A DNA stretch of 64,000 nucleotides. It comes from a virus. The DNA is taken from IMG/VR virus record IMGVR_UViG_3300023179_000026, positions 1 to 64,000 of that record; one strand, given 5' to 3'. The position numbers and the translations under genes were made by a program. Within the stretch, counting starts at the first letter, position 1. Each line of letters opens with the position of its first letter. Below the pieces are notes generated by a model. It had not been told where the DNA came from. It ran no database searches and was given only the letters and a program-made list of their open reading frames with translations. Below, piece by piece: positions 2,725 through 22,953 of this stretch.

Positions 2725-4107
2725 TTAGAGCACGTTGTATCGGTCAACGTTCACAGTATCAAGCATAATGCTTAATGGTGTGAAATCTTTTGCTCCTAAG
2801 ATAGACTTCATGATAGCAGGTGAAAAACCACTTACCAATGCTGCACCACGTGTATCAAACTGCACAGGCACATTGTCATGTGAGTTTAAGTTCCAAAATA
2901 CGATCTTAGGTACATCATATCCTGCATCAGCATACTTCTTACCAATTGCTTTGTATGCGGTATCATCAGCACGTACTGCTTGATTAAACTGCATATCAGA
3001 TAGAATCAATAAAAACTTAGGCATATCTGCTTCAGGTACTTTATTGGTAACTGCTACATTTAGAATAGCATCAAATGCAGCCATGAGATTAGTTGACATT
3101 GACCAATCAGCACGATTCATTTGATTCATTTTGTCAATGATATTACCTTTAAGTATTTCAATCCTAGTGTTGGTAGAAAATGTTAAAAACATATCTTTAA
3201 AAGCACCACGATTTTTATCAGCACAATATAAACCTAATGCTAGTGCAACATTCAAGCAAGTTAAGTTTTTAGCTCCACCTACAGGACAGCCCATTGATCC
3301 ACTTACATCAACCATGGGCAACACATTAGCATCACTCATGTAGTTAGGTAATGCTTCCCACTGTGCAACACTTACATCAGTAATACCACTTAACATTGAT
3401 TTAATAACGTCATGTGGATAAATTGCTGATGCGTTAATTTTAGTGGTTCCGTTAACTAACCCATCACGATACTCTTGGTAACGATCATGGTCATTACGGT
3501 CAAATGCTTTCTTATAGATAGATGCAGCTATTGATGGTACATGCGAATAGTTAATCTTATCCCATTCTTTAGCGCACATATTAGTTTCAACAACCTTAGT
3601 TGCATTGACTAATAGCTTACGATATGTCTTAGGAGATAGACCCATGAAATTACGCAATTCTGCTGCAATTTTTCCTTTACGTGGCATCCATTTAGCACAC
3701 AGCCCATCATTGTTTAATAATGCTTCACGAATTGATGTATAAGCAAAATTTTTCATAGTGCGTGATGCAAAAATAAGCATATCATCCCATCGTCCAAAAG
3801 TAGGAATATGTGGAATGACACGTATTAGCATACTAGGATGATTAATTTCCATGTATAAAAGTAAGTCACGTATTAATTGACGTTCACCTGCGCCACCACG
3901 CACATCACGTGCCCATAGCAAAATTTTAGTTGCGATTTCAGGACTTTCTTGAAATGCTTTTTCAAACAATGCGGTAATATCTTTACCACGTGATGCTCCA
4001 ATTTTAAAGAACAAGTCTACAAGAGCATCACCTGTTCCGTTAAATGCAGCCATGCCATTAGTGGTAGTTGTTACTTCGGCTTGTTCTATTGCGGTTTTTA
4101 ATTCCAT
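2725..4107 (-). CDS. Ro60-like TROVE/vWA RNA-binding protein (DUF2828 type)
   Basis: N-terminal TxNG...DLFF...RDVRGGAGER, GRWDD, AKWMPR motifs; C-terminal vWA MIDAS (VDVSGSM, ILSDMQF, IVFWNL, LVSGFSP). Confidence 0.8.
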   Translation of the reverse strand: MELKTAIEQAEVTTTTNGMAAFNGTGDALVDLFFKIGASRGKDITALFEKAFQESPEIATKILLWARDVRGGAGERQLIRDLLLYMEINHPSMLIRVIPHIPTFGRWDDMLIFASRTMKNFAYTSIREALLNNDGLCAKWMPRKGKIAAELRNFMGLSPKTYRKLLVNATKVVETNMCAKEWDKINYSHVPSIAASIYKKAFDRNDHDRYQEYRDGLVNGTTKINASAIYPHDVIKSMLSGITDVSVAQWEALPNYMSDANVLPMVDVSGSMGCPVGGAKNLTCLNVALALGLYCADKNRGAFKDMFLTFSTNTRIEILKGNIIDKMNQMNRADWSMSTNLMAAFDAILNVAVTNKVPEADMPKFLLILSDMQFNQAVRADDTAYKAIGKKYADAGYDVPKIVFWNLNSHDNVPVQFDTRGAALVSGFSPAIMKSILGAKDFTPLSIMLDTVNVDRYNVL

Positions 4108-4120
4108 TTTAATTTTCCTT

Positions 4121-4180
4121 TACAGAATGCATTTTTTTTCAATTTTCAAGTTTGATTTTTTAAGTTGCTGTTAGCATTCT
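4121..4180 (-). ncRNA. Y-RNA-like element 1 (ACAGCAA family) in the leader of the Ro60-like gene
   Basis: AGAATGC-taACAGCAA...GCATTCT-GT terminal stem; internal loop CTTGAAA resembling a Ser(UGA) anticodon loop; abuts the RBS. Confidence 0.7.
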
Positions 4181-4186
4181 TAAACT

Positions 4187-4353
4187 AACAGGATGGTCGA
4201 TACGGTAATTTATTTTCTGCTTGCCCACTACCACAAGGGACTTTGTATCACAAGCCTATCATAGATCTTGGCTATGCCCAAAGTTGGCTAACCCCAACAG
4301 GCTGATCGATTACTCAATCTCTAGTCATGTAAAAAAGTTGCTGTATCCATCCT
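4187..4353 (-). ncRNA. Y-RNA-like element 2 (ACAGCAA family), multi-hairpin
   Basis: AGGATGG-atACAGCAA...CCATCCT-GT stem with compensatory changes relative to the other copies; internal hairpins GTTGG/CCAAC, TTGG/CCAA, AGCCT/AGGCT. Confidence 0.7.
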
Positions 4354-4605: not shown

Positions 4606-5091
4606 CTACGCTACTCGACGATGACCCACAATTTCTTTGTAACGATCTGCAGCATACGATGCGGCAAACGCACGTGGTTTAACGAGTGGAATAACATTAC
4701 AAGTACCACGAATATAACCTACAGCTTCTTGTATTGCAATACTGCTGTTATGCTTTTCATCAGGATTTATATCCAAATGTACTTCAATATCAAATTCAAC
4801 ATAAGGTGCAAGTTTTAAATATAAGTCTGCAACTTTATATGCTTCATTGACTAAACGCATACGTGGCTTATTTGCTTTTTGATCAAAGTCACGTTCACGC
4901 TGTACTGCTCCAAAAATTTTGCATCCATGTTTACCATCAATATGGACAACTACTGCAAGAATATAATCAGCATACCATATTTCATTGATACGCATACGCT
5001 CACTATCGCAACCGATGTATAGTTTAGTGTTAGGACCGCATTTTTCAAGAAATTCTAATAATTCTAAAACATCGATTTCTTTTTTGATCAT
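4606..5091 (-). CDS. RNase H-like YkuK family protein
   Basis: LYIGCDS...RMRLVNE...EVHLDIN acidic catalytic pattern. Confidence 0.7.
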   Translation of the reverse strand: MIKKEIDVLELLEFLEKCGPNTKLYIGCDSERMRINEIWYADYILAVVVHIDGKHGCKIFGAVQRERDFDQKANKPRMRLVNEAYKVADLYLKLAPYVEFDIEVHLDINPDEKHNSSIAIQEAVGYIRGTCNVIPLVKPRAFAASYAADRYKEIVGHRRVA

Positions 5092-11591: not shown

Positions 11592-11653
11592 AACAGGATG
11601 CATTATACGGTTTAGATTAGCAGTCTAATGTAATAATTTGCTGTTAGCATCCT
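11592..11653 (-). ncRNA. Y-RNA-like element 3 (ACAGCAA family) with a Ser(GCU) anticodon-arm mimic
   Basis: AGGATGC-taACAGCAA...TTAGA-CTGCTAA-TCTAA...GCATCCT-GT. Confidence 0.75.
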
Positions 11654-11759: not shown

Positions 11760-12380
11760 TTAATGATGTTTAATTAATACAAAATTTGTAATACAAAATC
11801 TGCCATTTCCTTGATTTTTTAAATGTGTTGGTATTGATACTTTTGTTACTTCATGAGTTATTATAGAAGGGAAAATCACTAATCTATTGCTTAAACACTT
11901 AATTTTTTTGTTATGATTTAAAATTAAGTCTCCACCTTTGAAGGATTTAGGACTTTTAAATAACCAAAAAAGTGTTGTTATTACTGAGCTATCAGTATGG
12001 GGTTTATAAAATTCATTGTCTTCGTAATAGTTTAACATTGTACAATCAGTATTTGAATAAAGAAAGTAGTGGTAAAAATAATCAATTTTCAAAAGCTCTT
12101 CACATACTTCAGGGGAAAATAATTGTCTAGTTAATGTTAAAATTTTTGACTGTGATCTATTTTCATTATAATATAGATCTAAAAACAGACCTGTATTATT
12201 TCTCAACAAGTTTTCATTTTTATCTTTTGCAGAAAATGTAGGATTAGGCGGTTCTAGTAAATCATTGTTCAATAGAAACAATGATTCTTCTAATAATTCA
12301 TTATATTCAGCATTGTTAAAAAAGTTGTCTATAATTATTGCTTTTAAACTGTGAACTTTAAAATGTTTTATTTTTCTCAT
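11760..12380 (-). CDS. 2OG-Fe(II) oxygenase (prolyl-hydroxylase-like)
   Basis: YKPHTD...GGDL...FPS..THEV..GRF. Confidence 0.85.
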   Translation of the reverse strand: MRKIKHFKVHSLKAIIIDNFFNNAEYNELLEESLFLLNNDLLEPPNPTFSAKDKNENLLRNNTGLFLDLYYNENRSQSKILTLTRQLFSPEVCEELLKIDYFYHYFLYSNTDCTMLNYYEDNEFYKPHTDSSVITTLFWLFKSPKSFKGGDLILNHNKKIKCLSNRLVIFPSIITHEVTKVSIPTHLKNQGNGRFCITNFVLIKHH

Positions 12381-12470: not shown

Positions 12471-13043
12471 TTAAAATGCCCAACTTACAAAAACAAACCT
12501 ATTACCCTTTGTAATTTTATTTACATTATGGGGATATAAAAAAACACTTGGAAATATTATAATGCTTCCTGCAGATAATTTGAGAACTTTATCTCTAATT
12601 ACTAGTTCTCCACCTTCATAATTATCATTTAACACACCAATTAAACTAAGTACAGGAATTCCTTTAATTTGTCCATCAAAAATTGAATGTATGTGATCAA
12701 CGTGTGGTTCCATTTTGGAATTAGTTGTATATTTAGTAAATCTTGGCGAATAAAATCCCTGAAACCTACTATAATATAGTTTTAAACCGTAAGTATCTTC
12801 ATTTAAATACCTAGTAAAACACTCATCAATTATTTGTTCTAATTCTTGTGACTCATTTATTTTATTGAAATATACTAATGGTTCAAACTCATGTTGAAAC
12901 GTACTATGATTATATAAATCATGAACCTTATTAAATTGGTGTCGTTCCCAAGTGCAATTTTTAAGAGATGATAAAATTTTTTTACAAAAAGGTTTTTCTA
13001 ATTTTTTTTCGTAAACCTTAATATAGTCATTTAAATTGTTCAT
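12471..13043 (-). CDS. 2OG-Fe(II) oxygenase
   Basis: EPHVD...YEGGEL...FPS.FLYPHNV..GNR. Confidence 0.85.
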   Translation of the reverse strand: MNNLNDYIKVYEKKLEKPFCKKILSSLKNCTWERHQFNKVHDLYNHSTFQHEFEPLVYFNKINESQELEQIIDECFTRYLNEDTYGLKLYYSRFQGFYSPRFTKYTTNSKMEPHVDHIHSIFDGQIKGIPVLSLIGVLNDNYEGGELVIRDKVLKLSAGSIIIFPSVFLYPHNVNKITKGNRFVFVSWAF

Positions 13044-15199: not shown

Positions 15200-15832
15200 T
15201 TACTTAAACATTGGACCTTCTACCCAAGCAACAATGCTTTTTCTTGAACCTGCCGTAATTGGTGTAACTTGATGTATCATCCAACTAGGAAAGCATATTA
15301 AAGTTCCACGTTTTTGTTCTACTGTAATTTTATCCCTTGAAACGGATGAAAAAATATTAAATTCACCACCTTCATACTCGCTTTTATCTTGTAAAAATAA
15401 TACTGTACTTAATTTTCTTATAAGGTGTGAGTTATGAATAGGACCCATAATTAAATCCATATGATCATCATATTTTGCGCCTATAGTATCATACAAAGTG
15501 TATTGAAATAAACTGAAACCGAAGAGATCAAAACGATAAAAATCGTTATTAAGTCTTGTTACTCTAGCAAAATATTCATCAAAAAACCAATTGATAGCAG
15601 GGTCGATGTTAATCCACGCTACTTTTGAATCACGGACTTCTTTACTAAAACTTTTTATTTTTTTTTTATTTTTTTGATTGGTGTCTCTTTGATTTATAAC
15701 AGAGGCATCTTCTGCAATTAATTTATCGCCGTATGATTCAATTGTTTTTAACTGCTCTTCGCTAAACGCATTATGCAAATATACATAAGGATATATAATT
15801 TTTCCAACAGTTTCTACATTTGTAGTTAACAT
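15200..15832 (-). CDS. PKHD-type 2OG-Fe(II) hydroxylase
   Basis: YDDHMD...RKLS...YEGGEF...FPSWMIHQVTP..GSRKS. Confidence 0.88.
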   Translation of the reverse strand: MLTTNVETVGKIIYPYVYLHNAFSEEQLKTIESYGDKLIAEDASVINQRDTNQKNKKKIKSFSKEVRDSKVAWINIDPAINWFFDEYFARVTRLNNDFYRFDLFGFSLFQYTLYDTIGAKYDDHMDLIMGPIHNSHLIRKLSTVLFLQDKSEYEGGEFNIFSSVSRDKITVEQKRGTLICFPSWMIHQVTPITAGSRKSIVAWVEGPMFK

Positions 15833-16395: not shown

Positions 16396-16469
16396 TGGCG
16401 TTCCATAGCGGATTTGAACCGCTGTTCACGGATAGAAAGTCCGTTTTCGTAACCCCTAGAAGAATGAAC
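16396..16469 (-). tRNA. tRNA-Glu(TTC), irregular acceptor and D arm
   Basis: Loop CTTTCTA, perfect anticodon and T arms; apparent 1-nt deletion in the acceptor 5' strand. Confidence 0.75.
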
Positions 16470-19896: not shown

Positions 19897-20514
19897 CTAT
19901 TTCGTAATAAAATTATCAACGATTGCAGTATTAAAACTTATACTAATACGATCTTTATTTGTATTATTAGTTAGTACATAATGGTCTAAATAGCCGGGAA
20001 AAATAACTAATTTGCCAGTCTTTGGAGGTATTTTCCATTCAATAGAATTAAATTCATTGTATTCGCTGATAATTTCCCCATTGCTATATAAATTGGCATA
20101 ACAATAGGTTTGTTCAATCTTAGAATTAGGATTGTTAAACACAATATCACCTGTATCAAAATCAGCTTCTACGTAGTACACTCCCGACAAATAAGATAAA
20201 CCATGATTATGGCGAAGATTATAATGATGTTTTTGATTTATATTTACCCAAACTGCAGTTATTTCTTGCGAAATATTTTGGCGCAGTTTTAAAATAAGAT
20301 TAGTGTTATTAACTCTAGCCATAATATGACTTAATAGGTCATCAAGCATTGGATGGTTACTTGGCACTAAGTTGCTCTGCCAACCACCACAATTAGTCAA
20401 TACTCTACCTGAGTCTGCTTTTTTTAATTCATAACAAAAATTTTTTAATTTTTGATTGTCAATTTCAAGATTATCAACTAATATAAAATTAGAAAAAATT
20501 GGGAAGGTATACAT
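19897..20514 (-). CDS. Putative 2OG-Fe(II) oxygenase (TIGR02466-like)
   Basis: WVNIN...HNH..SYLSGVYY..GDIVF...FPGYLDHYV...RISISFN. Confidence 0.85.
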   Translation of the reverse strand: MYTFPIFSNFILVDNLEIDNQKLKNFCYELKKADSGRVLTNCGGWQSNLVPSNHPMLDDLLSHIMARVNNTNLILKLRQNISQEITAVWVNINQKHHYNLRHNHGLSYLSGVYYVEADFDTGDIVFNNPNSKIEQTYCYANLYSNGEIISEYNEFNSIEWKIPPKTGKLVIFPGYLDHYVLTNNTNKDRISISFNTAIVDNFITK

Positions 20515-20528
20515 ATTTATTTCCTATA

Positions 20529-20623
20529 TGGTGGAGAGCGGAGGAGTCGAACCCCATCCCCTTCTTCAGCGGAACCCAGTTTTCAAGGCTGGTCGGCGCA
20601 CCAACGCACCTGCATCACTCTCC
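20529..20623 (-). tRNA. tRNA-Ser(TGA), unusual D arm
   Basis: Loop CTTGAAA, long variable arm, CCA. Confidence 0.82.
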
Positions 20624-21233: not shown

Positions 21234-21309
21234 TGGAGTAAGCGACAGGAGTTGAACCTGCATAAAACGGGGTTGCAATCCGTTCCCTAGCCATTCGGGT
21301 CACGCTTAC
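21234..21309 (-). tRNA. tRNA-Cys(GCA)
   Basis: Loop TTGCAAC, U73, CCA. Confidence 0.9.
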
Positions 21310-21314
21310 ATATA

Positions 21315-21431
21315 AAACAGGATGCGTTATCGTTGCTCTACCATTAAGCTACATACCTTTTACAAGATATGGTAGTATTCGAACCTACAACCAACGGCTC
21401 CCGAAGCATCATAATTTGCTGTTAGCATCCT
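21315..21431 (-). ncRNA. Y-RNA-like element 4 (ACAGCAA family): YrlA-type circularly permuted tRNA mimic
   Basis: AGGATGC..ACAGCAA stem, then T arm (GTAGG-TTCGAAT-ACTAC), closed 7-bp acceptor (CATATCT-tgtaa-AGGTATG), then D arm (TA-GCTT-AATGGTA-GAGC). Confidence 0.85.
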
Positions 21432-21436
21432 AAACT

Positions 21437-21514
21437 TGGCACCCCCTGTAGGATTCAAACCCACGACCTTACCGTTCGTAGCGGTATGCTCTAAGTTCAC
21501 TGAGCTAAGGGGAT
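21437..21514 (-). tRNA. tRNA-Arg(ACG)
   Basis: Loop CTACGAA, CCA; T loop TTTGAAT. Confidence 0.88.
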
Positions 21515-22098: not shown

Positions 22099-22953
22099 CT
22101 ACTTTAAACCCATTTCTTTCCTAATTTGGGTTGCACTGATACTAGTGATTGTTTCATCAAATGTTTCTTCACCACTTGTATAGCCTACACCACGACCCCA
22201 ACCAATATGTACAATGTTTGGTACTAACATAATTTCATATTGCCCTTGATACAATGGATCCAAATCACGCTTAATATAACCTTTAACTTGTTCTACATTG
22301 AAAGGATTACTTCCTTGCCATCCTTGCACATCACGTATTTGTATAATGACTTGTCCTGTGCGTTTAAGTAATCGTTCAAAAAGAGCACGATGACCTGCAT
22401 GCCACGGTTGCCAACGTCCTAGCATCTGCACCGTTTCTTTACGCCAATCGAAAGTTGGTCTACGTTGTTCTCTAATAATTCGTTCACCAACATATGCTAC
22501 CCAAAATTCAGCATTTTTTTCTGTAATACGAAAATCATATATTTCAGGTGGGACAAATGCTTTGTTAGTATCTTCATAACGACTATTGTCAATAGTATCC
22601 ATCCATATTGTCCAATCTGCTTTAAAATTATTGCGCATTTCAACTAGAGGAGCGACAAAATCACATATGACATAATCACTACCACTGTTTATAGCAAAAT
22701 CTGCCATACGTATAGATTGGCGTATACGACCTTCTGTGCTAAAGTCCCAATCATTGTATCGTTTTCTAACATCATCAGCATTAAACCATTTAACGGATGG
22801 TTTCCATTCTTTAGGAACAATTTCGTATCTGCTTAAAATGCTAATTGGCATTTCAGTTATTGAACGTGGCTGTTGTAGATAGTTTTTTAATCGTTCTGCA
22901 AAATATGTTTTACCTGCTCCTGGCAAGCCCATGATAAGAATTTTAGTAGTCAT
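22099..22953 (-). CDS. Adenylylsulfate kinase-like / cytidylyltransferase-like fusion
   Basis: GLPGAGKT P-loop, NADDVR..DFS.EGR; C-terminal GRWQPWHAGH (HxGH). Confidence 0.8.
   Translation of the reverse strand: MTTKILIMGLPGAGKTYFAERLKNYLQQPRSITEMPISILSRYEIVPKEWKPSVKWFNADDVRKRYNDWDFSTEGRIRQSIRMADFAINSGSDYVICDFVAPLVEMRNNFKADWTIWMDTIDNSRYEDTNKAFVPPEIYDFRITEKNAEFWVAYVGERIIREQRRPTFDWRKETVQMLGRWQPWHAGHRALFERLLKRTGQVIIQIRDVQGWQGSNPFNVEQVKGYIKRDLDPLYQGQYEIMLVPNIVHIGWGRGVGYTSGEETFDETITSISATQIRKEMGLK

What the first reader, a model, noticed from the sequence alone, without database searches (positions are those of the whole stretch)
21315..21431. Circularly permuted tRNA elbow (T arm before D arm) inside an ACAGCAA stem
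Seen 5' to 3': handle, small hairpin, CGUU, T arm with UUCGAAU, a 7-bp acceptor closed by a UGUAA loop, U8A9-like linker, D arm with GG, AACG, handle. This is the established topology of YrlA RNAs, where the Ro-binding stem replaces the anticodon arm. It is the strongest evidence linking the four-member family to Y RNAs, though it lies 17 kb from the Ro-like gene and between tRNA-Arg and tRNA-Cys.
Basis: partly seen in the sequence, partly recalled or inferred. Interest (0 to 1): 0.82.

Follow-up and report, generated by a model that had tools for sequence, protein, structure and literature searches.

The report
Handle-tagged permuted tRNA-Pro mimic RNA
A 116-base RNA gene inside this giant phage's tRNA cluster is a complete tRNA look-alike with its ends rearranged and closed by a conserved "handle", and it most likely partners a phage protein shaped like the RNA-binding autoantigen Ro60, in a widespread phage RNA family that I could not find in the literature or in Rfam.

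Summary
On the minus strand at 21433-21316, between tRNA-Arg(ACG) and tRNA-Cys, lie a T arm, a closed 7-8 bp acceptor-like hairpin and a D arm, enclosed by the stem AGGAUGC/GCAUCCU plus UAACAGCAA.

Re-joined at nucleotides 29|30, the RNA is called tRNA-Pro(CGG) by ARAGORN.

It is not a YrlA by Rfam. It scores 32 bits against a cut-off of 69, and tandem tRNA junctions in the window score about 26.

A covariance model built from 28 other phage sequences, without this copy, scores it at 95.7 bits. The best tandem-tRNA junction scores 47.

In a 30-sequence alignment the handle, T, acceptor and D helices are 95-100% paired, with compensatory changes.

The same handle tags many phage RNAs. They often end 16-32 nt before a DUF2828 gene, as two copies do here. 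The model of that protein matches only Ro60 structures over its full length.

Best reading: a Y-RNA-like partner of a Ro60-like protein that displays a tRNA mimic. Binding and function are inferred, not shown.

This scan has flagged the same system in more than 120 other genomes. I found no publication on it.

The parts
21316..21433 (-). Whole RNA: handle-closed, circularly permuted tRNA-Pro(CGG) mimic, about 116 nt
   Evidence: Model R1, built without this copy, matches 21433-21316 end to end at 95.7 bits. Rfam YrlA gives 32.2 bits at 21415-21302.
21425..21431 (-). 5' strand of the handle stem, AGGAUGC
   Evidence: It pairs with GCAUCCU at 21325-21319. In the family this helix is 96% paired and all 6 pairs show double changes.
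21416..21424 (-). Conserved single-stranded motif UAACAGCAA
   Evidence: It is shared by all four family members of this genome and by the phage RNAs. It matches the Rfam Class I consensus CUUACAGCAA.
21397..21407 (-). Anticodon mini-hairpin GC-UUCGGGA-GC (tRNA nt 30-40, anticodon CGG)
   Evidence: After un-permutation ARAGORN calls tRNA-Pro(cgg). In 19 aligned members with this hairpin paired, the loop has U33 in 18/19, purine 37 in 19/19 and variable 34-36.
21372..21388 (-). T arm GUAGG-UUCGAAU-ACUAC, with G53.A61 unpaired in this copy
   Evidence: The family T stem is 98.7% paired. The near-identical copies L052 and L069 have C61.
21352..21371 (-). Closed acceptor-like hairpin CAUAUCU(U)-GUAA-(A)AGGUAUG
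   Evidence: MFE fold. In the family it is 95% paired and 7 of 7 pairs show compensatory changes.
21335..21351 (-). U8 A9 linker and D arm GCUU-AAUGGUA-GAGC
   Evidence: The D stem is 100% paired in the family. U8, A14 and G18 are each 30/30 and A21 is 29/30.
21331..21333 (-). ACG (nt 27-29), pairing with CGU at 21396-21394 to form the proximal anticodon stem
21319..21325 (-). 3' strand of the handle stem, GCAUCCU, followed by GUUUU
   Evidence: The family consensus ends ...CcuGuu.
21437..21514 (-). Upstream tRNA-Arg(ACG); its encoded CCA ends 5 nt before the handle stem
   Evidence: The order Met-Arg-[RNA]-Cys-Trp is the same in L052 and L069.
21234..21309 (-). Downstream tRNA-Cys; its 5' end lies 9 nt after the handle stem
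2725..4107 (-). Ro60-like protein gene (Pfam DUF2828 + DUF7788, MIDAS DxSxS), the presumed partner
   Evidence: Pfam and PHROG hits. Model pLDDT 85; the top 13 PDB matches are all Ro60. D267, S269 and S271 are invariant.
4125..4179 (-). Sibling handle RNA 1, minimal form, ending 17 nt before the Ro-like gene
   Evidence: Rfam Dicty_Class_I_RNA 26.9 bits. R1 35.2 bits.
4191..4352 (-). Sibling handle RNA 2, with a long insert and the stem GGAUGG/CCAUCC
11596..11652 (-). Sibling handle RNA 3, between tRNA-Met and tRNA-Gln
   Evidence: R1 37.8 bits.

Best explanation
The element is a small non-coding RNA gene, co-transcribed with the phage tRNAs. Processing of the flanking tRNA-Arg and tRNA-Cys probably releases it. 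It has two modules. Module 1 is a 'handle': a 7-bp terminal stem, single-stranded UAACAGCAA, a short A-U helix and a 3' UG(U) tail. It is the shared tag of a large phage RNA family and most likely the docking site of the phage's Ro60-like ring protein (DUF2828, 2725-4107). Module 2 is a complete tRNA-Pro(CGG)-like body: elbow, core tertiary nucleotides and anticodon loop. Its acceptor end is closed by a loop, so it cannot be charged, and the chain enters and leaves through the 5' strand of the anticodon stem (nt 29|30). By analogy with Ro60-Y RNA particles (Rsr-YrlA), the RNA would tether or gate the ring protein and present a tRNA shape to tRNA-recognising factors. Those could be processing or repair enzymes, an exonuclease, or host tRNA-targeting nucleases for which it would be bait. 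Shown here: the structure, its conservation and covariation, the family, the gene-RNA linkage and the Ro60-like fold. Inferred: expression and processing, protein binding and the downstream function.
For: Structure: Rfam's YrlA model aligns T arm, acceptor stem and D arm. ARAGORN calls the un-permuted sequence tRNA-Pro(cgg), with an artificial ACCA tail added. Model R1, built from 28 other phage sequences, scores the element at 95.7 bits; the best tandem-tRNA junction scores 47.1 and the rest are at or below 23. Covariation: 87.3% of cells are paired against 61.6% in shuffles; the covariation score is 0.673 against 0.19 (0/500 shuffles reach it); slid controls give 35-45%; 7/7 acceptor pairs and 6/6 handle pairs show double changes. 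U8, A14 and G18 are 30/30. The anticodon-loop signature is U33 18/19 and R37 19/19, with variable 34-36. Close relatives L052 and L069 differ at three helix positions, and all three changes keep the pairing; they also keep the Met-Arg-[RNA]-Cys-Trp order. 64 of 231 loci hold a DUF2828 homolog. Of 92 RNAs in loci with the gene, 88 are on the gene's strand and about 20 end 16-32 nt before its start. All 3 complete contigs that carry a tRNA-like member encode the protein. Five cultured phages with the gene have 1-6 strict handles, mostly clustered at the gene. Five tRNA-rich phages without it have 0-2, which equals the shuffled background. Protein: the model has pLDDT 85.2 and its top 13 PDB hits are all Ro60 over the full length (E 3e-8 to 8e-5, best TM 0.61); the MIDAS motif is invariant.
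Against: There is no direct evidence of transcription, RNA ends, protein binding or tRNA-type modification. This copy lies 17 kb from the Ro-like gene, not beside it. Its T stem has G53.A61 where nearly all tRNAs, and 29 of 30 aligned members, have G-C (that column is partly fixed by the search pattern). The fold is not more stable than shuffles (z -1.2). Part of the alignment statistics is built in by how the sequences were collected: handle pairing, UAACAGCAA and GGUUCRANUCC were search criteria. The acceptor, D and outer T-stem pairs were not. The handle does not look like the Ro60-binding helix of known Y RNAs, and the protein has no Pfam TROVE hit, so 'binds like Ro60' is an analogy. The presence/absence control covers only 10 phage genomes.
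Confidence: 0.68

Rival explanations
1. A permuted or split tRNA gene that matures into a working tRNA-Pro(CGG). RNase P and 3' processing would open the acceptor loop, CCA would be added, and the handle would be excised and religated or simply hold two halves together.
For: The un-permuted sequence is a full cloverleaf with a canonical core and anticodon loop. The 7-bp acceptor stem is the RNase P determinant; M. smegmatis YrlA, which has one, is cleaved by RNase P and gains CCA in vivo (Chen 2014). The phage has tRNA-Pro(UGG) but no CGG tRNA. RtcB sits near the DUF2828 gene in Listeria phage AG20.
Against: No bacterial pathway is known that excises an insert from the anticodon stem at 29|30. 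Most handle RNAs carry no tRNA body, or only T and D arms without an acceptor stem, so the shared handle is not a tRNA-maturation signal. This copy has G53.A61. No RtcB or RNA ligase was found in the held record, which is only 39% complete.
Confidence: 0.08
2. The handle RNA family is real, but the handle is recognised by something other than the DUF2828 protein, for example a host RNase or chaperone, or the neighbouring RNaseH-like DUF458 protein. Alternatively it acts mainly as a processing or stability element of the tRNA operon.
For: This copy and the one at 11596-11652 sit 5-10 nt from tRNAs and far from the DUF2828 gene. A PF04308/DUF458 gene neighbours the DUF2828 gene here and in Vibrio phage ValKK3. 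No binding data exist.
Against: The RNAs are tightly and directionally coupled to the DUF2828 gene in very different phages. Handles are at background level in the five phages without the gene. In ValKK3 a handle encloses the start codon of the gene itself, as expected for the protein's own binding site.
Confidence: 0.17
3. An artefact: two decayed neighbouring tRNA genes, or a tandem-tRNA junction, that merely resembles YrlA.
For: Rfam's YrlA model gives 25.8-25.9 bits to real tRNA-tRNA junctions in this window, against 32.2 for the element. Chen et al. warn of exactly this false positive.
Against: The acceptor strands are complementary and closed by a tetraloop. The whole architecture, with the handle, recurs with compensatory changes in dozens of unrelated contigs. 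R1 scores it 95.7 bits against 47 or less for junctions. It is no more than 69% identical to any of the phage's own tRNAs.
Confidence: 0.02

Closest known systems
YrlA Y RNAs of bacteria and phages (Rfam RF02553; Chen et al. 2014, PMC4201824), partners of Ro60/Rsr
   Same: Both have 5' and 3' ends paired into a closing stem. Both carry a tRNA-like domain in the order T arm, closed acceptor-like stem, D arm, with the tRNA tertiary nucleotides kept. Both are encoded in the same genome as a Ro60-fold HEAT-ring + vWA/MIDAS protein, often with several different RNAs per protein.
   Different: This element scores 32 bits against a gathering score of 69. Its closing stem carries UAACAGCAA instead of the Y-RNA Ro-binding helix. 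The partner protein is DUF2828/DUF7788 with no Pfam TROVE match. A complete anticodon stem-loop is retained. This copy sits in a tRNA operon 17 kb from the gene. Rfam YrlA finds none of the handle RNAs in Breezona, Mushroom, RSP15 or AG20.
Dictyostelium Class I RNAs (Rfam RF01414; Kjellin et al. 2021, PMC7919456)
   Same: The handle design is the same: a 6-bp terminal stem that covaries, then an unpaired motif (Dictyostelium CCUUACAGCAA, phage GCUAACAGCAA). All five positions reported as near-invariant (U3, C6, C9, A10, A11) match. The 5' context is (A)AG and the 3' end is CUGU. The interior is variable.
   Different: Class I RNAs are 42-65 nt, eukaryotic, driven by the DUSE promoter, and reported as unique to Dictyostelia with the RRM protein Rnp1A as binder. 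This element is 116 nt and carries a tRNA body. Only the minimal sibling at 4123-4179 reaches even 26.9 bits (GA 41.5). Common descent or a common partner is untested.
Thermus phage phiLo Ro60 with Yrl1/Yrl2 (PMC12135203; PDB 9KOP, 9L5Y)
   Same: A phage-encoded Ro60-fold protein with phage-encoded small RNAs next to its gene. It is the best structural match of the window's protein (E 3e-8).
   Different: phiLo Ro60 is a recognised TROVE homolog. Its Yrl RNAs are described as stem-bulge-stem with a CGAA motif, not as ACAGCAA handles or tRNA mimics.
Circularly permuted tRNA genes of red and green algae (Cyanidioschyzon merolae; from my own knowledge, not checked here)
   Same: The 3' half of a tRNA is encoded before the 5' half, and the acceptor ends are joined by a short linker.
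   Different: Those mature into real tRNAs through a circular intermediate made by the eukaryotic/archaeal splicing endonuclease and ligase at a bulge-helix-bulge motif. Nothing like that is known in bacteria, and here the junction carries a conserved protein-type handle.

Membership tests
YrlA (Rfam RF02553) | Covariance-model score at or above Rfam's gathering score (69 bits) | tested here: not met
   32.2 bits at 21415-21302(-). Tandem tRNA junctions in the same window score 25.8-25.9 bits.
YrlA (Rfam RF02553) | tRNA-like domain in the order T arm, closed acceptor-like stem, D arm | tested here: met
   Alignment to the model, covariation in all three helices, and R1 at 95.7 bits.
YrlA (Rfam RF02553) | Encoded within about 4 kb of a TROVE-domain Ro60/Rsr gene (reporting criterion of Chen et al. 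2014) | tested here: not met
   It lies 17.2 kb from the only Ro-like gene. That gene has Pfam DUF2828 + DUF7788 and no TROVE hit, although its fold is Ro60-like.
YrlA (Rfam RF02553) | Closing stem that carries the Ro60-binding helix of Y RNAs | tested here: inconclusive
   A closing stem exists, but its conserved motif is UAACAGCAA. The Rfam alignment of the stem region is poor, with low posterior probabilities and mismatches.
YrlA (Rfam RF02553) | Binds Ro60 and carries tRNA-type modifications | not testable with these tools
   This needs RIP or EMSA and modification mapping.
ACAGCAA-handle RNAs linked to DUF2828 (uncatalogued; defined here and in earlier notes of this scan) | 6-7 bp terminal stem that covaries, followed by NN-ACAGCAA, with the 3' strand followed by UG | tested here: met
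   AGGAUGC-UA-ACAGCAA ... GCAUCCU-GU. The family stem is 96% paired with double changes at all 6 pairs, though pairing was a selection criterion.
ACAGCAA-handle RNAs linked to DUF2828 (uncatalogued; defined here and in earlier notes of this scan) | A DUF2828 Ro60-fold gene in the same genome | tested here: met
   Gene at 2725-4107. Two sibling RNAs lie directly upstream of it. Linkage elsewhere is shown.
ACAGCAA-handle RNAs linked to DUF2828 (uncatalogued; defined here and in earlier notes of this scan) | Full-length match to a model of the tRNA-like subclass built without this sequence | tested here: met
   R1: 95.7 bits, model positions 1-128. The same model finds Breezona at 74.1, Mushroom at 59.0 and RSP15 at 55.2 bits.
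Dictyostelium Class I RNA (Rfam RF01414) | Short terminal stem + 11-nt motif with U3, C6, C9, A10, A11 + CUGU 3' end | tested here: met
   GC-UAACAGCAA matches all five positions and the 3' end is ...CCUGUU (features from PMC7919456).
Dictyostelium Class I RNA (Rfam RF01414) | Rfam gathering score 41.5 bits, length 42-65 nt, DUSE promoter, dictyostelid genome | tested here: not met
   There is no RF01414 hit on this 116-nt element. The sibling at 4123-4179 scores 26.9 bits. The context is a phage.
tRNA (Rfam RF00005) / permuted tRNA gene | Cloverleaf with canonical core once the halves are put in tRNA order | tested here: met
   ARAGORN calls tRNA-Pro(cgg) on the rearranged sequence, to which I added an ACCA tail. 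U8, A14, G18, G19, U54, U55, C56 and A58 are present.
tRNA (Rfam RF00005) / permuted tRNA gene | Free acceptor end with discriminator and CCA; G53-C61 pair | tested here: not met
   The acceptor is closed by UGUAAA and position 61 is A. Neither ARAGORN nor RF00005 calls a tRNA in the native order.
tRNA (Rfam RF00005) / permuted tRNA gene | Maturation to an aminoacylatable tRNA | not testable with these tools
   This needs tRNA-seq or acid-gel Northern blots in infected cells.

The most novel reading that the evidence does not exclude
The stem + ACAGCAA + UG handle is a universal docking module for DUF2828 Ro60-like ring proteins. The tRNA-shaped members, this tRNA-Pro(CGG) mimic included, are baits or adaptors that bring the ring to enzymes acting on tRNA anticodon loops and elbows, in the phage-host conflict over tRNA. 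The 'Class I' RNAs of Dictyostelium, reported as unique to social amoebae, would then be the eukaryotic branch of the same RNA-protein system.
Probability: 0.2. Interest if true: 0.85.

Novelty: new variant of a known kind. Interest (0 to 1): 0.62.

Why it matters
Ro60-Y RNA particles are a classic but still poorly understood RNA-surveillance system. Their known bacterial and phage forms rest on TROVE proteins and YrlA-type RNAs.

This element belongs to a parallel set with a different handle and a different Ro60-fold protein family. tblastn finds that protein in 711 of 50,697 phage records, including Felix O1-type phages, Listeria P100-type phages, cluster L mycobacteriophages and T4-like Vibrio and Aeromonas phages.

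The specific point added here is that the cargo is not just a tRNA 'elbow'. It is a whole tRNA with an anticodon-type loop, tethered through its anticodon stem and blocked at its acceptor end. That shape suits presenting a tRNA to factors that read the anticodon loop or elbow without entering translation.

If binding is confirmed, a very common phage 'RNA-binding protein' of unknown role gets its RNA partners. The model phages named above give direct experimental entry points.

The handle's likeness to Dictyostelium Class I RNAs would, if it reflects homology, overturn the published view that those RNAs are confined to social amoebae.

Tried and rejected
1. Rfam at gathering thresholds gives nothing here except tRNAs. 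At permissive thresholds there is only the sub-threshold YrlA hit, which the tandem-tRNA control shows to be weak on its own.

2. Single-sequence folding: the MFE recovers the handle, acceptor and D helices, but z is only -1.2. The plus strand gives z -2.0 with no meaningful structure. Thermodynamics neither supports nor refutes the finding.

3. blastn of the region against cultured phages matches only tRNAs; there is no near relative.

4. Literature: 'DUF2828' gives five irrelevant papers. 'ACAGCAA' + phage gives nothing relevant. The Ro60/Y RNA phage papers concern TROVE proteins. The supplementary phage table of Chen 2014, the Sim 2020 review and Avesson 2011 are not held. So I cannot say which 22 phages Chen et al. 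listed, or what the other three Class I-binding proteins are.

5. Sequence searches of the protein against PDB and NCBIfam give nothing. Only the fold search shows Ro60.

6. RtcB and RNA ligase families are not found in the held record, but it is only 39% complete, so this says nothing.

7. Brute-force un-permutation of 58 members with ARAGORN gave calls for 48. The test is noisy, because many artificial joints make A-rich pseudo-anticodons, so I use only the well-supported calls and the direct loop statistics.

8. Origin from one of the phage's own tRNAs is rejected: the best identity is 69%.

9. The loose handle scanner, which allowed any gap and G-U pairs, gave many false hits in coding DNA. 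I replaced it with a strict version and checked it against shuffled genomes.

Full report
**1. What is there**

The window is part of an uncultured giant phage. The record is 136.9 kb and about 39% complete. It carries 24-25 tRNA genes, all on the minus strand.

The finding lies on that strand between tRNA-Arg(ACG) (21514-21437, encoded CCA) and tRNA-Cys (21309-21234).

Read 5' to 3' from 21433:
- UUU
- AGGAUGC (handle, 5' strand)
- UAACAGCAA
- A-UUAU-GAU
- GC-UUCGGGA-GC (the small hairpin)
- CGU
- UGGUU
- GUAGG-UUCGAAU-ACUAC (T arm)
- CAUAUCU-UGUAAA-AGGUAUG (closed acceptor-like stem; 8 bp with a GUAA tetraloop if the U-A pair forms)
- UA
- GCUU-AAUGGUA-GAGC (D arm)
- A-ACG
- AUAA-C
- GCAUCCU (handle, 3' strand)
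- GUUUU

The only slips are the loop length and an unnoticed G53.A61 mismatch in the T stem.

**2. Is it more than chance, and is it YrlA?**

Rfam's YrlA model matches 21415-21302 at 32.2 bits, against a gathering score of 69 (E 2e-5 locally, 0.004 over the whole window).

The same model gives 25.9 and 25.8 bits to two ordinary tRNA-tRNA junctions in the window (21286-21164 and 11465-11392). Chen et al. (2014, PMC4201824) describe exactly this false positive. So the Rfam hit is suggestive, not decisive.

Folding energy is not distinctive (z -1.2). The decisive evidence is comparative.

**3. Relatives**

Of 124 matches, 69 have GCATCC within 300 nt downstream, and nearly all of these end ...GCAUCCUGU.

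The interiors differ:
- Most are 45-75 nt with a single hairpin, often of anticodon-arm type.
- About one in eight (14 of 113) carries a T arm and a D arm, with or without an acceptor hairpin between them.

A second scan that demanded UAACAGCAA followed by GGUUCRANUCC also hit the limit. It returned about a hundred distinct tRNA-like members with many different handle stems: GGAUAC/GUAUCC, AGACUC/GAGUCU, GAAGUC/GACUUC and others.

Two contigs (L052, L069) carry near-identical copies of this element. They sit in the same gene order, tRNA-Met, tRNA-Arg(ACG), RNA, tRNA-Cys, tRNA-Trp. L069's contig encodes a 92% identical Ro-like protein. Among these three copies, the three substitutions inside helices (3-70, 4-69, 13-22) all keep pairing. 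Only A61 of the window copy breaks a pair.

**4. Covariation**

I aligned 30 members, including the window copy (A2), and counted pairs for a structure derived from that copy.
- 87.3% of cells are paired, against 61.6% in shuffles.
- The covariation score is 0.673 against 0.19 (0 of 500 shuffles reach it).
- With partners slid by 1-3 columns, pairing falls to 35-45%.
- Per helix: handle 96%, T stem 98.7%, acceptor hairpin 95% (7 of 7 pairs with changes on both sides), D stem 100%.

Handle pairing, UAACAGCAA and part of the T arm were selection criteria. The acceptor hairpin, the D stem and the outer T-stem pairs were not, and they carry most of the signal.

A covariance model (R1) built from 28 members, without the window copy or its close relatives, scores the element at 95.7 bits over all 128 positions (E 5e-17). 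The best tandem-tRNA junction scores 47.1 and the others 23 or less.

In five tRNA-rich cultured phages without the Ro-like gene, R1 never exceeds 43.4 bits. The top hit there spans two annotated tRNAs.

**5. The small hairpin is an anticodon arm**

Joining ...GAGC-A-ACG (nt 22-29) to GC-UUCGGGA-GC-CGU (nt 30-43) gives a 5-bp anticodon stem with a 7-nt loop. ARAGORN then calls the rearranged sequence tRNA-Pro(CGG); I added an ACCA tail for that test.

So the RNA is a whole tRNA. It is circularly permuted at 29|30, with the handle emerging from the 5' strand of the anticodon stem and the acceptor end closed.

The core is canonical:
- U8, A14, R15-Y48 (A-U), G18, G19, A21
- G10-C25 with G45
- U13.G22 with G46
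- U54, U55, C56, A58

In the family, U8, A14 and G18 are each 30/30 and A21 is 29/30. In the 19 aligned members where the mini-hairpin pairs, the loop has a pyrimidine at 32 (17/19), U33 (18/19), a purine at 37 (19/19) and A38 (16/19), while 34-36 vary freely. That is the signature of real anticodon loops, with many different 'anticodons'. The well-supported calls include Arg UCU, Thr UGU, Tyr GUA, Asp GUC, Ile GAU, Lys UUU, Trp CCA and Pro.

The body is not a recent copy of any tRNA of this phage; the best identity is 69%.

**6. The partner gene**

The 460-aa ORF at 2725-4107(-) has Pfam DUF2828 + DUF7788 and PHROG 850 'RNA-binding protein'. It has no TROVE, NCBIfam or PDB match by sequence.

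An AlphaFold2 model from a 30-sequence alignment (pLDDT 85.2, pTM 0.82) has as its 13 best PDB matches only Ro60 structures: Thermus phage phiLo, Xenopus, human and Deinococcus Rsr. They align over the full length, with E from 3e-8 to 8e-5 and best TM 0.61. Isolated vWA domains follow far behind. A MIDAS DxSxS motif is invariant. So 'Ro-like' holds at the level of fold.

**7. Gene-RNA linkage**

In this genome there are exactly four handle RNAs. Two lie directly upstream of the Ro-like gene; the proximal one ends 17 nt before its start. Two lie in the tRNA array.

Elsewhere:
- 64 of 231 fetched loci (typically 5-14 kb) hold a DUF2828 homolog, although only 711 of 50,697 phage records have one at all.
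- In loci with both, 88 of 92 RNAs are on the gene's strand and about 20 end 16-32 nt before its start.
- All three complete contigs that carry a tRNA-like member encode the protein.

Cultured phages show the same picture:
- Breezona has three RNAs just after its 'Ro-like RNA binding protein' gene, one of them tRNA-like (74 bits).
- Salmonella phage Mushroom (Felixounavirus) has four in the tRNA array next to the gene, one tRNA-like (59 bits).
- Listeria phage AG20 has three just upstream of the gene.
- RSP15 has one tRNA-like RNA (55 bits) about 0.9 kb downstream.
- In Vibrio phage ValKK3 a handle encloses the start codon of the gene itself.

Whole-genome counts of strict handles are 1, 3, 3, 6 and 3 in these five phages, mostly clustered at the gene. 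In five phages without the gene they are 1, 0, 2, 0 and 0, which equals the shuffled background. The sample is small, but the direction is clear.

**8. How it probably works**

There is no promoter-like or terminator-like site between the RNA and its flanking tRNAs. The nearest signals are a terminator-like hairpin at 21720-21693 and promoter-like sites further upstream. I therefore infer co-transcription with the tRNAs, and release when RNase P and 3' processing cut out tRNA-Arg and tRNA-Cys.

I infer that the handle then docks the Ro60-like ring. The tRNA body, uncharged and unchargeable, presents its elbow and anticodon loop to tRNA-recognising factors, as YrlA is thought to do for Rsr.

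I cannot tell whether it acts as an adaptor (to an exonuclease or repair enzyme), a gate on the ring, or a bait for tRNA-targeting nucleases. The 7-bp acceptor stem predicts RNase P sensitivity, as shown for M. smegmatis YrlA.

**9. Comparison with what is known**

- It works like a YrlA but fails three of YrlA's defining tests (score, TROVE neighbour within 4 kb, stem motif). I do not file it there.
- Its handle matches the design of Dictyostelium Class I RNAs. The Rfam consensus is GaUcuC-CUUACAGCAA...GagAuC-UG, and the sibling at 4123-4179 scores 26.9 bits. The features described by Kjellin et al. are a 6-bp stem, five near-invariant motif positions and a CUGU end. That paper reports Class I RNAs as unique to Dictyostelia. 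Whether the likeness reflects homology is open.
- I found no paper or Rfam family that describes the phage family.
- Earlier notes of this scan describe the same system in more than 120 other genomes, including the Class I resemblance and a Felix O1-type case. My tests were run independently and agree with them.

**10. Verdict**

- That it is a real, conserved RNA gene of the handle family: about 0.9.
- That it partners the Ro60-like protein: about 0.7.
- Its downstream role is unknown.

It is a new variant of a known kind of system, the Ro60/Y RNA particle. What this report adds is that the cargo is a complete permuted tRNA with an anticodon-type loop.

Noticed in passing
window 11760-12380, 12471-13043, 15200-15832, 19897-20514 (all minus): Four paralogous 2OG-Fe(II) oxygenase genes are scattered among the tRNA genes (Pfam PF13759; PHROG 61 and 81). 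This is an unusual density for a tRNA array and may mean RNA or nucleotide modification or repair enzymes.
   Followed up: no
window 4606-5091 (-); L235 4463-4987: A PF04308 RNaseH-like (DUF458) gene sits directly upstream of the two handle RNAs and the Ro-like gene. A DUF458 gene also follows the DUF2828 gene in Vibrio phage ValKK3. It may be a conserved third component.
   Followed up: partly
L235 2941-2981 (Vibrio phage ValKK3, NC_028829.1 209664-209704): A handle-like element (GACAU-UU-UACAGCAA...AUGUC-AG) encloses the ribosome-binding region and AUG of the DUF2828 gene itself. This suggests the protein regulates its own translation through the same motif.
   Followed up: no
L236 1443-1994 and 5728-7035 (Listeria phage AG20): A ROOL RNA match (90.1 bits, just under the gathering score of 99.1) lies immediately upstream of the three handle RNAs. 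An RtcB 'tRNA splicing ligase' gene lies 1.2 kb downstream of the DUF2828 gene.
   Followed up: no
window 16399-16469 (-) and 20534-20622 (-): Rfam finds a tRNA at 16399-16469 (36.1 bits) that ARAGORN does not call. A long-arm tRNA-like sequence at 20534-20622 matches tRNA-Sec at 34.7 bits, below the gathering score of 47. These may be extra or degenerate tRNA genes.
   Followed up: no
window 21405-21409 (-) versus 21321-21325 (-): The 3' handle strand GCAUC can also pair with a second GAUGC just before the anticodon mini-hairpin, which would compete with that hairpin. The duplicate is kept in the close relatives L052 and L069 but not in other family members. It could be an alternative conformation or a coincidence.
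   Followed up: no
window 22099-22953 (-): A 284-aa P-loop kinase-like gene (PHROG 10255 'kinase'; weak KTI12 and APS-kinase Pfam hits) lies just upstream of the tRNA block that contains the finding. It could be a polynucleotide or other kinase related to RNA metabolism.
   Followed up: no
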